Source of the DNA: Salinivirgaceae bacterium
GTDB lineage: Bacteria; Bacteroidota; Bacteroidia; Bacteroidales; SZUA-534
Assembly (NCBI GenBank): GCA_017527435.1
Contig: JAFXQB010000010.1
Coordinates: forward strand, 1,941-65,940
Length of the DNA: 64,000 bases
Direction of reading: 5' to 3'
In this document: positions 62,223-62,314 of the stretch, in pieces
How positions within the stretch are numbered: position 1 is the stretch's first letter
Layout of the letters: each line of letters begins with the position of its first letter
Made by a program: the position numbers and the translations under genes
The notes under the pieces: model-generated
Database searches by the model: none
Told to the model about the DNA's origin: nothing
The model's input: the letters and a program-made list of their open reading frames with translations, nothing else

Positions 62223-62230
62223 TATATTTG
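62223..62230 (+). promoter_or_regulatory. Candidate -7 promoter box of the tracrRNA
   Basis: TATATTTG (perfect TAnnTTTG) immediately 5' of the anti-repeat and divergent from cas9. Confidence 0.5.
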
Positions 62231-62231
62231 C

Positions 62232-62314
62232 AATTACAATTTTGAAGCAATTCACAATAAGGATTATTCCGTTGTGAAAACATTAGGCTGCCTCGTCCTC
62301 AACGGGGCTTTTTT
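62232..62314 (+). ncRNA. tracrRNA
   Basis: The anti-repeat ATTACAATTTTGAAGCAATTCACAA (62233-62257) pairs with repeat nt 2-27, with one bulged U. It is followed by TAAGG and a GGATTATTCC-GTT nexus-like hairpin (compare AAGGCUAGUCCGUU of Spy tracrRNA). A GCCTCG/CGGGGC hairpin and T6 (62309-62314) close it. The exact 5' end is unknown. Confidence 0.85.

What the first reader, a model, noticed from the sequence alone, without database searches (positions are those of the whole stretch)
62223..62314. tracrRNA predicted from sequence, with enough detail to design a single-guide RNA
The plus strand immediately upstream of cas9, and divergent from it, contains the following in order:
- a perfect Bacteroidota -7 box, TATATTTG (62223-62230)
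- a 25-nt anti-repeat (62233-62257), which forms a ~26-27-bp duplex with repeat nt 1-28 and leaves one U of the repeat UUU (nt 13-15) bulged
- UAAGG, then a GGA-UUAU-UCC hairpin and GUU, closely echoing the AAGGCUAGUCCGUU nexus of Spy tracrRNA
- a 6-bp GC-rich hairpin, GCCUCG/CGGGGC (62290-62308)
- U6

The T-tract fixes the strand, and that in turn fixes the crRNA sense strand of the array as plus. One further detail: the segment CCGUUGUGAAAAC (62269-62281) repeats the first 8 nt of the CRISPR repeat, GUUGUGAA. It could pair intramolecularly with the 3' end of the anti-repeat, UUCACAA. That would be a possible self-sequestering alternative fold.
Basis: partly seen in the sequence, partly recalled or inferred. 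Interest (0 to 1): 0.6.

Follow-up and report, generated by a model that had tools for sequence, protein, structure and literature searches.

The report
Ordinary Bacteroidota type II-C tracrRNA gene

Summary
These are the TATATTTG -7 box (62223-62230), a 25-26 nt anti-repeat (62232-62257), the UAAGG-GGA/UCC nexus, GUUGUGAAAACAU, and a GC hairpin followed by T6 (62290-62314).

- **Uniqueness:** the anti-repeat occurs once in the 3.17-Mb genome, and none is expected by chance.
- **Conservation:** the same module lies upstream of cas9, on the opposite strand, in 25 related loci. A model of the 61-nt core matches 81 of 401 Bacteroidia genomes.
- **Covariation:** the anti-repeats change together with their own repeats and keep a one-base bulge. 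The nexus hairpin shows compensatory changes. The promoter box and terminator recur at fixed positions.
- **Link to a solved structure:** a genome whose Cas9 is 92% identical (N-terminal 400 aa) to the structurally solved CbCas9 carries the same 31-nt core.

This is therefore a new member of a known, experimentally used tracrRNA family.

The "self-sequestering" fold is the predicted minimum-energy structure of the free RNA. It has no specific covariation support and carries an internal mismatch in about a fifth of relatives. It is probably a by-product of other constraints.

No usable transcript data exist for this locus.

The parts
62223..62230 (+). Bacteroidota-type -7 promoter box TATATTTG for the tracrRNA. 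The inferred transcription start is about 62233-62234.
   Evidence: Read directly. It is the only TAnnTTTG between 62100 and 62520. By my reading of the printed upstream sequences, 21 of 25 related loci have a perfect TAnnTTTG at the same position, 26-27 nt before UAAGG. The start site is inferred, not measured.
62233..62314 (+). Predicted primary tracrRNA, about 82 nt.
   Evidence: Bounded by the promoter box and by the terminator hairpin plus T6. Homologous units in relatives are 80-93 nt. No transcript data are available.
62232..62257 (+). Anti-repeat. It pairs with repeat nt 2-28 with one bulged U, and U62258 can wobble-pair with repeat G1.
   Evidence: Unique in the genome. Changes together with the repeat in 19 loci.
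62258..62270 (+). UAAGG plus the nexus hairpin GGA-UUAU-UCC (stem 62261-62263 with 62268-62270).
   Evidence: Predicted in every fold. All three pairs show compensatory changes, and 100% of cells are paired in 72 further family members. It aligns to the UAAGGCuaGUCCGU part of Rfam tracrRNA.
62271..62283 (+). Conserved linker GUUGUGAAAACAU. In the crRNA-bound state it most likely forms a 3-bp mini stem-loop. In the free RNA, its first 8 nt can pair with 62251-62258.
   Evidence: Nearly invariant in more than 100 homologues. The cofold with crRNA predicts the mini hairpin. The free-RNA fold predicts the alternative stem.
62290..62314 (+). Terminal GC-rich hairpin (GCCUCG(U)/(A)CGGGGC) plus U6. 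It serves as an intrinsic terminator and probably as the 3' Cas9 handle.
   Evidence: Stem sequence is conserved with compensatory changes in relatives.
55339..56143 (+). CRISPR array of 11 identical 46-nt repeats and 10 spacers (29-30 nt). The crRNA sense strand is plus.
   Evidence: Orientation follows from the tracrRNA pairing, from the promoter boxes inside relatives' repeats, and from the plus-strand terminator at 56198-56225.
57512..62167 (-). cas9 (1551 aa), on the opposite strand to the tracrRNA gene, with the start codon about 65 nt from the tracrRNA start.
   Evidence: TIGR01865, 5.8e-116. PDB 8iyq CbCas9, E=0, 1454.8 bits.
56252..57519 (-). cas1 (56584-57519) and cas2 (56252-56587), overlapping each other and cas9.
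   Evidence: TIGR03639, 3.4e-92, and TIGR01573, 3.6e-20.

Best explanation
Positions 62233-62314 on the plus strand encode the tracrRNA of an intact type II-C CRISPR-Cas9 locus, laid out as array, cas2, cas1, cas9, tracrRNA.

The proposed mechanism is as follows.

1. The RNA is transcribed away from cas9 from a Bacteroidota -7 promoter (TATATTTG). The start site is inferred from the motif and from its conserved spacing.
2. Its first 25 or so nucleotides pair with nt 1/2-28 of each 46-nt repeat on plus-strand crRNA precursors. The result is a 26-bp duplex with a conserved one-U bulge. The pairing is shown by complementarity and by covariation.
3. The rest of the RNA is the Cas9-binding scaffold. 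It consists of UAAGG, the nexus hairpin GGA/UCC (shown by covariation), the invariant linker GUUGUGAAAACAU (probably a small stem-loop 2), and a GC hairpin with a U-tract that also terminates transcription.
4. Cas9 binds the duplex and scaffold. RNase III, which the genome encodes, may trim the duplex. The spacer part of the crRNA then guides DNA cleavage. This last step is inferred from the family.

The RNA belongs to the same tracrRNA family as the guide scaffold of the structurally solved CbCas9.
For: - **Match and uniqueness:** exact coordinates and a unique 26-nt anti-repeat.
- **Locus context:** cas9, cas1 and cas2 are identified.
- **Synteny:** the same unit lies upstream of cas9 on the opposite strand in 25 of 25 related loci whose upstream region is present. 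L025 has it about 275 nt from cas9.
- **Repeat/anti-repeat covariation:** 19 loci, for example AAAAATCAGT/ACTGATTTTT in L019, and the bulge at repeat nt 13 is kept in most of them.
- **Promoter:** a perfect TAnnTTTG at fixed spacing in 21 of 25 relatives.
- **Spread:** the core model R1 matches 30 of 401 Bacteroidota genomes and 81 of 401 Bacteroidia genomes, with one copy in the window's own genome.
- **Nexus:** compensatory changes in all three pairs, 100% of cells paired.
- **Terminator:** hairpin conserved with compensatory changes.
- **Depth of conservation:** the core is kept beside Cas9 orthologues that are only 30-55% identical to this one.
- **Link to a solved structure:** genome G442 has a Cas9 92% identical to CbCas9 over 400 aa. 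Its cas9-adjacent RNA is AAGGAUUAUUCCGUUGUGAAAACAUUUAGCGCCUCG...CGGGGCUUUUUUU.
- **Rfam:** the best match on the short stretch is tracrRNA RF02348, on the right strand and in the right register, at 19 bits.
- **Processing enzyme:** RNase III is present in the genome.
Against: - There is no direct evidence of transcription. Metatranscriptome contigs only carry the conserved core from relatives, or the neighbouring gene.
- The Rfam tracrRNA model is far below its gathering score, 19 against 70 bits. It did not appear at all in the 7.6-kb scan.
- The repeats in this genome carry a degenerate promoter box (TAATTTTT) where 17 of 19 relatives have TAnnTTTG. There is no perfect box anywhere between 55150 and 56300, so crRNA expression here is less certain.
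- No protospacer was found, so neither the PAM nor the crRNA strand could be checked independently.
Confidence: 0.9

Rival explanations
1. The tracrRNA is real, and the internal copy of the repeat's 5' end (GUUGUGAA, 62271-62278) is a selected regulatory feature. In the free RNA it pairs with the 3' end of the anti-repeat (62251-62258) and extends the nexus stem. This would gate crRNA pairing, stabilise the free RNA, or even persist inside the Cas9 complex.
For: - The stem is part of the minimum-energy fold of the free RNA, with a z-score of -2.69.
- Pair probabilities are 0.77-1.0, and forbidding the stem costs 6.4 kcal/mol.
- The stem can form in most family members: 96% and 92% of cells are paired.
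- One lineage (L062/L073) has a two-sided change U-A to A-U at pair 22-47.
- RNAalifold picks this stem as the consensus for 12 full-length sequences.
Against: - Both arms are almost invariant for other reasons. One must complement the repeat and the other is a conserved linker, so a high paired percentage proves little.
- In 72 further members none of the 8 alternative pairs shows a two-sided change. The three pairs that do are all in the nexus.
- Central pairs are broken in 9, 4 and 2 sequences. Examples are the GUAGUGA and GCUGUGA variants, where the anti-repeat is unchanged. The outer pair is absent in 40 of 66.
- L067/L078 and L134 change positions 47 and 48 without compensation.
- Two relatives (L144, L149) lack GUUGUG altogether.
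- Only 8 of 26 anti-repeat nucleotides would be covered, which leaves an 18-nt toehold. The cofold with crRNA opens the stem and predicts a mini hairpin instead.
Confidence: 0.12
2. The unit is a tracrRNA gene in a locus that is no longer active. In that case the RNA may be made but serves no immunity.
For: - The promoter box inside the repeats is degenerate here (TAATTTTT), and no perfect TAnnTTTG lies upstream of or inside the array.
- No spacer matched a viral contig or a phage record.
- cas9 (37.8% G+C) and cas1/cas2 (53.3% and 50.3%) differ sharply in composition, which suggests past recombination.
Against: - cas9, cas1 and cas2 are full-length open frames with strong family matches.
- All 11 repeats are identical and the 10 spacers are distinct.
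- The tracrRNA promoter, anti-repeat, nexus and terminator are all intact and match the family consensus.
- RNase III is present.
Confidence: 0.06
3. The conserved block is not an RNA gene. It is DNA-level regulatory sequence for cas9, a promoter or operator, and resembles the repeat by chance.
For: The block lies only about 65 nt from the cas9 start codon, so the cas9 promoter must overlap this region. No perfect TAnnTTTG for cas9 was found on the minus strand between 62100 and 62520.
Against: A promoter or operator would not change together with the CRISPR repeat. It would not keep hairpins through compensatory changes, and it would not end in a conserved terminator hairpin plus T-tract on the strand opposite to cas9.
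Confidence: 0.02

Closest known systems
Guide RNA scaffold of CbCas9, the Chryseobacterium type II-C Cas9 (PDB 8iyq, 8wmh, 8wmm, 8wmn, 8wr4; Zhang et al. 2024, Nature 630:484, cited in PMC13153721)
   Same: The window's Cas9 matches CbCas9 with E=0 and 1454.8 bits. A genome whose Cas9 is 92% identical to CbCas9 over 400 aa has, upstream of cas9 on the opposite strand, an RNA unit with the same 31-nt core CACAAUAAGGAUUAUUCCGUUGUGAAAACAU. It also has the same GCCUCG...CGGGGC-U7 terminator class.
   Different: The distal anti-repeat sequence differs, as it must, because it follows each locus's own repeat. The window's repeat is 46 nt with an unusual GC-rich 3' third. The window has no accessory gene between cas9 and cas1, whereas CbCas9 works with PcrIIC1. 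I could not read the RNA chain of the PDB entries, so identity with the published single guide is inferred from the native locus of a close relative.
Streptococcus pyogenes tracrRNA (Rfam RF02348)
   Same: The order of modules is the same: anti-repeat, UAAGG, short nexus hairpin, CCGUU, small stem-loop with an A-rich loop, GC hairpin, U-tract. Infernal aligns them in that register.
   Different: The match is 19 bits against a gathering score of 70, so this RNA is not a member of that Rfam family as modelled. S. pyogenes is type II-A with 36-nt repeats and a leader-driven array. Stem-loop 2 here is reduced to about 3 bp.
Type II-C tracrRNAs of Neisseria meningitidis and Campylobacter jejuni, and the putative Flavobacterium columnare / F. 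psychrophilum tracrRNAs (PMC3737331, PMC8092290, PMC10309648)
   Same: The operon is the minimal cas9-cas1-cas2 set. The tracrRNA gene lies upstream of cas9, and the array is read in the sense opposite to the cas genes. Repeat-embedded promoters are described for this subtype. [quoted passage not shown]
   Different: Neisseria and Campylobacter have 36-nt repeats, sigma-70 -10 boxes and unrelated scaffold sequences. The Flavobacterium tracrRNAs were still described as not experimentally validated in 2021 and 2023.

Membership tests
tracrRNA (functional class, type II CRISPR-Cas) | An anti-repeat complementary to the locus's own CRISPR repeat | tested here: met
   A 26-bp duplex with one bulge, unique in the genome, that changes together with the repeat in 19 relatives.
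tracrRNA (functional class, type II CRISPR-Cas) | Encoded within or next to a cas9 locus | tested here: met
   It lies about 65 nt upstream of cas9 on the opposite strand. Relatives have the same position.
tracrRNA (functional class, type II CRISPR-Cas) | A structured 3' tail (nexus plus hairpins) ending in an intrinsic terminator | tested here: met
   Folds, terminator scan, nexus covariation, terminator covariation.
tracrRNA (functional class, type II CRISPR-Cas) | Expressed as a small RNA from its own promoter | tested here: inconclusive
   The promoter motif is present and conserved. The public RNA runs only gave undirected contigs of the conserved core from relatives.
tracrRNA (functional class, type II CRISPR-Cas) | Required for crRNA maturation and Cas9 cleavage | not testable with these tools
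   This needs genetics or biochemistry.
Bacteroidota type II-C (CbCas9-type) tracrRNA family | The conserved core CACAAUAAGGAUUAUUCCGUUGUGAAAACAU directly after the anti-repeat | tested here: met
   The window scores 79.2 bits against model R1, although it is one of the model's training sequences. Sequences that were not used for training, from 81 of 401 Bacteroidia genomes, match the same model and carry the same core. One of them is a close CbCas9 relative.
Rfam RF02348 (tracrRNA) | Score at or above the gathering threshold of 70 bits | tested here: not met
   19 bits, E=0.41 on a 141-nt search. No match in the 7.6-kb search.
Type II-C CRISPR-Cas | A cas9-cas1-cas2 operon without csn2 or cas4 | tested here: met
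   The three genes overlap one another, and the region from the end of cas2 to the array holds only a terminator.

The most novel reading that the evidence does not exclude
The tracrRNA carries a built-in mimic of the crRNA repeat's 5' end (GUUGUGAA). In the free RNA this mimic clamps the 3' end of the anti-repeat into an extended nexus stem. An incoming crRNA must then displace it by strand invasion from the free 18-nt toehold. That would be a conformational switch that proofreads or times guide loading, specific to the GUUGUGA-repeat clade of Bacteroidota Cas9 systems.
Probability: 0.1. Interest if true: 0.5.

Novelty: new member of a known kind. Interest (0 to 1): 0.2.

Why it matters
The practical value is modest. 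The coordinates and fold are good enough to write a single guide for this 1551-aa Cas9. That guide would be a 20-24 nt spacer, then GUUGUGAAUUGCUUUCAAAAUUGUAAU, a GAAA loop, and 62233-62314. The PAM is still unknown.

The more general point from this work is that the 31-nt scaffold core stays almost unchanged beside Cas9 proteins that are only 30-55% identical and range from 1221 to 1688 aa. It occurs in about 20% of sampled Bacteroidia genomes. One scaffold may therefore serve many Bacteroidota Cas9 enzymes, and one small covariance model annotates their tracrRNAs, which Rfam's model misses.

None of this changes what is known about how Cas9 systems work.

Tried and rejected
**Transcript evidence.** Three run searches and two lay-downs gave nothing usable.
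- Metatranscriptome contigs X2-X4 cover only the neighbouring gene from 62482 onward.
- X1, X7, X9 and X15 hold only 62246-62284, or 62254-62320, from relatives with different flanks. These contigs are undirected and may include DNA.
- No run was found for a probable Flavobacterium-like relative (L079).

**Independent check of crRNA strand and PAM.** Three spacers scanned exactly against viral contigs gave no hits. A blastn of the whole array against phage records matched only the repeat, not the spacers.

**Rfam.** There was no tracrRNA match in the 7.6-kb scan and only a sub-threshold one on 141 nt.

**Literature.** The core motif is not in the text of any held paper. The CbCas9 paper and Dooley et al. 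2021 are not held. I therefore could not compare with the published single-guide sequence or see how GUUGUGAAAACAU folds in the structure.

**Second tracrRNA elsewhere.** I considered and rejected this. The 9-nt ATTCACAAC at 56164 and the AATTCACAAG copies at 62340 and 62494 have no nexus or scaffold, and model R1 finds a single copy in the genome.

**Long-form tracrRNA acting as a natural single guide.** I considered this as well. There is no repeat-like sequence upstream of the anti-repeat and no other plus-strand TAnnTTTG between 62100 and 62222.

**Register of the mini stem-loop.** Covariation could not separate UGU-GAAA-ACA from GUG-AAAA-CAU, because each has only one or two informative changes.

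Full report
**The observation.**
- TATATTTG lies at 62223-62230.
- The anti-repeat ATTACAATTTTGAAGCAATTCACAA lies at 62233-62257, and complementarity already starts at A62232.
- UAAGG starts at 62258.
- The GGA-UUAU-UCC hairpin is 62261-62270.
- GUUGUGAAAAC is 62271-62281.
- The hairpin GCCUCG/CGGGGC is 62290-62308, followed by T6 at 62309-62314.

The repeat is the 46-mer GTTGTGAATTGCTTTCAAAATTGTAATTTTTCGGCGCGGGAACAGG. It is present 11 times without any variation at 55339-56143, with spacers of 29-30 nt. The repeat finder pairs 62232-62257 with nt 2-28 of every repeat, in two gap-free blocks offset by one T. Duplex and cofold calculations give a 26-bp helix that includes G1-U62258 and one bulged U.

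This is not a chance match. The 26-mer occurs once in the window with up to three mismatches allowed, against zero expected. Its exact 16-nt core occurs once in the 3.17-Mb genome, and the repeat occurs only in this array. TAnnTTTG occurs about once per 3 kb per strand, and the copy at 62223 is the only one between 62100 and 62520. The terminator scan finds the 62290-62308 hairpin independently.

**Context.** On the minus strand lie cas9 (57512-62167, 1551 aa, TIGR01865 5.8e-116), cas1 (56584-57519) and cas2 (56252-56587). They overlap one another. A two-way terminator at 56198-56225 separates cas2 from the array. This is a minimal type II-C layout. The tracrRNA gene and cas9 point away from each other, about 65 nt apart.

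**Comparative evidence.** A search with the Cas9 protein returned 26 loci. Most are rumen Bacteroidales MAGs, plus Bacteroides faecis and B. pyogenes, at 52-84% identity. In all 25 loci where the upstream region is present, the strand opposite to cas9 carries the block CACAATAAGGATTATTCCGTTGTGAAAACAT. The flanking features behave as expected for an RNA gene.
- A variable stretch precedes the block, and a variable GC hairpin plus T-run follows it. The units are 80-93 nt long.
- The variable stretch is the anti-repeat of that locus's own repeat. In 19 loci with a recognisable array, repeat and anti-repeat change together. Examples are L019 AAAAATCAGT/ACTGATTTTT, L020 AAATGAGTA/TACTCATTT, L040 GCATTTATCTTGT/ACAAGATATGC and L029 TTTAC/GTAAA. 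The one-base bulge at repeat nt 13 is kept in most of them.
- By my reading of the printed sequences, a perfect TAnnTTTG sits 26-27 nt before UAAGG in 21 of 25.
- The terminator stem shows compensatory changes, such as CCUCG/CGGGG to CAUCG/CGGUG.

**Spread of the family.** I built a covariance model of the 61-nt core (R1). It matches 30 of 401 genomes sampled across the phylum. It matches 81 of 401 sampled across the class, in 63 of 200 genera, with one copy in the window's own genome. In 72 further members, all three nexus pairs show two-sided changes (A-U to U-A five times and to G-C once; G-C to A-U three times in all across the two G-C pairs), and every cell is paired. The nexus hairpin is therefore demonstrated by covariation. 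The core persists beside Cas9 orthologues of 1221-1688 aa that are only 30-55% identical to the window's protein.

**Link to an experimentally solved system.** The window's Cas9 matches CbCas9 (PDB 8iyq and four more entries) with E=0. This is the Chryseobacterium enzyme of Zhang et al. 2024, as cited in PMC13153721. I searched 201 genomes of the genus that gave the best RNA matches, using the CbCas9 N-terminal sequence. One genome (G442) has a Cas9 that is 92% identical over 400 aa. Upstream of its cas9, on the opposite strand, lies ...GGAAUUCACAAU AAGGAUUAUUCCGUUGUGAAAACAUUUAGCGCCUCGACUAUCUUCGGGGCUUUUUUU. This has the same core and the same terminator class as the window. The window's RNA therefore belongs to the family whose scaffold has already been used for biochemistry and cryo-EM. 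I could not read the RNA chains of those PDB entries.

**Folds.**
- *Free RNA.* The minimum-energy structure pairs UUCACAAU (62251-62258) with GUUGUGAA (62271-62278) around the nexus hairpin. It has a z-score of -2.69, pair probabilities of 0.77-1.0, and a 6.4 kcal/mol advantage.
- *With the repeat.* The full 26-bp duplex forms instead. The released segment then folds as a 3-bp mini hairpin with an A-rich tetraloop (-45.0 kcal/mol).

**Is the alternative stem selected?** Probably not.
- Both arms are nearly invariant for independent reasons, so high paired percentages (96% and 92%) say little.
- One lineage shows a two-sided change (L062/L073).
- In the second set of 72 sequences none of the eight alternative pairs has a two-sided change. 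Central pairs are broken in 9, 4 and 2 sequences, for example in the GUAGUGA and GCUGUGA variants with an unchanged anti-repeat. The outermost pair is missing in 40 of 66.
- Two relatives have replaced GUUGUG with an inserted hairpin (L144 and L149).
- Changes within GUGAAAACAU fall mostly in the four loop positions (GAGA, GUAA, GUGA, AAAU, AACA). Distant relatives have a proper stem-loop at this place, such as GAGA-UUCG-UCUC, GAGC-UUU-GCUC and GAAACA-AUU-UGUUUC.

The segment therefore most likely corresponds to stem-loop 2 of the S. pyogenes scaffold. Infernal aligns it that way against Rfam RF02348, at only 19 bits against a 70-bit threshold. I rate a functional self-sequestering switch at about 0.1.

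**crRNA strand and biogenesis.** The plus-strand sense of the crRNAs follows from the tracrRNA pairing. Two further observations support it. First, 17 of 19 relatives carry a TAnnTTTG box at repeat nt 24-32 in the same sense. This fits the repeat-embedded promoters described for type II-C (PMC8092290, PMC10309648). Second, a plus-strand terminator follows the array. In this genome the box is degenerate (TAATTTTT), and no perfect box exists between 55150 and 56300. RNase III is encoded elsewhere in the genome.

**What is missing.** There is no direct evidence of transcription. No protospacer or PAM was found.

**Verdict.** The RNA is a new member of a known, very common Bacteroidota type II-C tracrRNA family, so interest is low. 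The only part that could be new, the alternative fold, lacks comparative support.

Noticed in passing
L094 401-630 (Riemerella phage vB_RanS_CRP19, OR089151.1 about 29290-29515); also H2-H12: Riemerella anatipestifer phages carry an intergenic mini-CRISPR array. It has three 47-nt type II-C repeats (GTTGTGAATTGCTTTCAAAAATTTACTATCTTTGTGATAGTTCGCAAC) plus a partial one, and the same 30-nt spacer appears twice. The repeat's first 20 or so nucleotides equal the window's repeat, and it contains a TATCTTTG promoter box. This may be a phage-borne array or an RNA-based counter-defence.
   Followed up: partly
window 55339-56143 (each repeat, nt 24-31); L017-L041 repeats: 17 of 19 related arrays have a perfect Bacteroidota -7 box TAnnTTTG inside the repeat. 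The window has TAATTTTT and L022 has TATTTTTA, so both lack the final G. The window's repeat also has an atypical GC-rich 3' third (CGGCGCGGGAACAGG), where relatives end in ...GAAACAAC or ...GAAACAGC.
   Followed up: partly
L021 8695-9750; L019 8629-9453 (also gaps of 0.8-1.1 kb in L023, L028, L030, L033): Several close relatives have an extra gene between cas9 and cas1, overlapping cas9's stop codon. In L021 it is a RhuM-family protein (PF13310, 8.4e-106). In L019 it is a Bro-N domain protein (PF02498, 1.6e-13). The window has no such gene, because cas9 and cas1 overlap.
   Followed up: partly
window 62340-62348 and 62494-62502: AATTCACAA, which extends to AATTCACAAG, occurs twice more within 250 nt downstream of the tracrRNA. 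In the 64-kb window this 9-mer occurs otherwise only in the tracrRNA and, on the other strand, in the 11 repeats, against 1.69 expected. Four of 25 relatives have one extra copy of the 8-mer ATTCACAA near their tracrRNA. Neither window copy is followed by a nexus.
   Followed up: partly
window 56584-62167: There is a sharp difference in composition inside the operon. cas9 is 37.8% G+C, cas1 is 53.3% and cas2 is 50.3%, while the window is 46.8% overall. Cas1 is 63-77% identical to relatives' Cas1, which suggests past module exchange.
   Followed up: partly
L136 151-346 (G794:C108); L138 (G684:C5); L086 (G345:C125); G833; G668: Some genomes carry two tracrRNA-like cores. They lie in tandem 135 nt apart (G794), about 50 nt apart with one copy truncated (G684), or 6.4 kb apart next to a second small array (G345).
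   Followed up: no
L073 13270-13850 (G119:C11): In one genome of the same order, a 4-repeat array (repeat GTTGTGTATATCCTTCAAATTTTGC...) lies directly upstream of the tracrRNA gene on the opposite strand, and no long cas9-like ORF lies within 600 nt. Its tracrRNA linker reads GUUGUGUAAAC, matching the repeat's GUUGUGUA.
   Followed up: no
window 62482-62800 (ORF 62513-63412, 299 aa): The gene downstream of the tracrRNA has no NCBIfam match. It is covered by contigs with no differing letters, at word depth 20-70, in three gut metatranscriptomes. It therefore appears to be well expressed in vivo.
   Followed up: no
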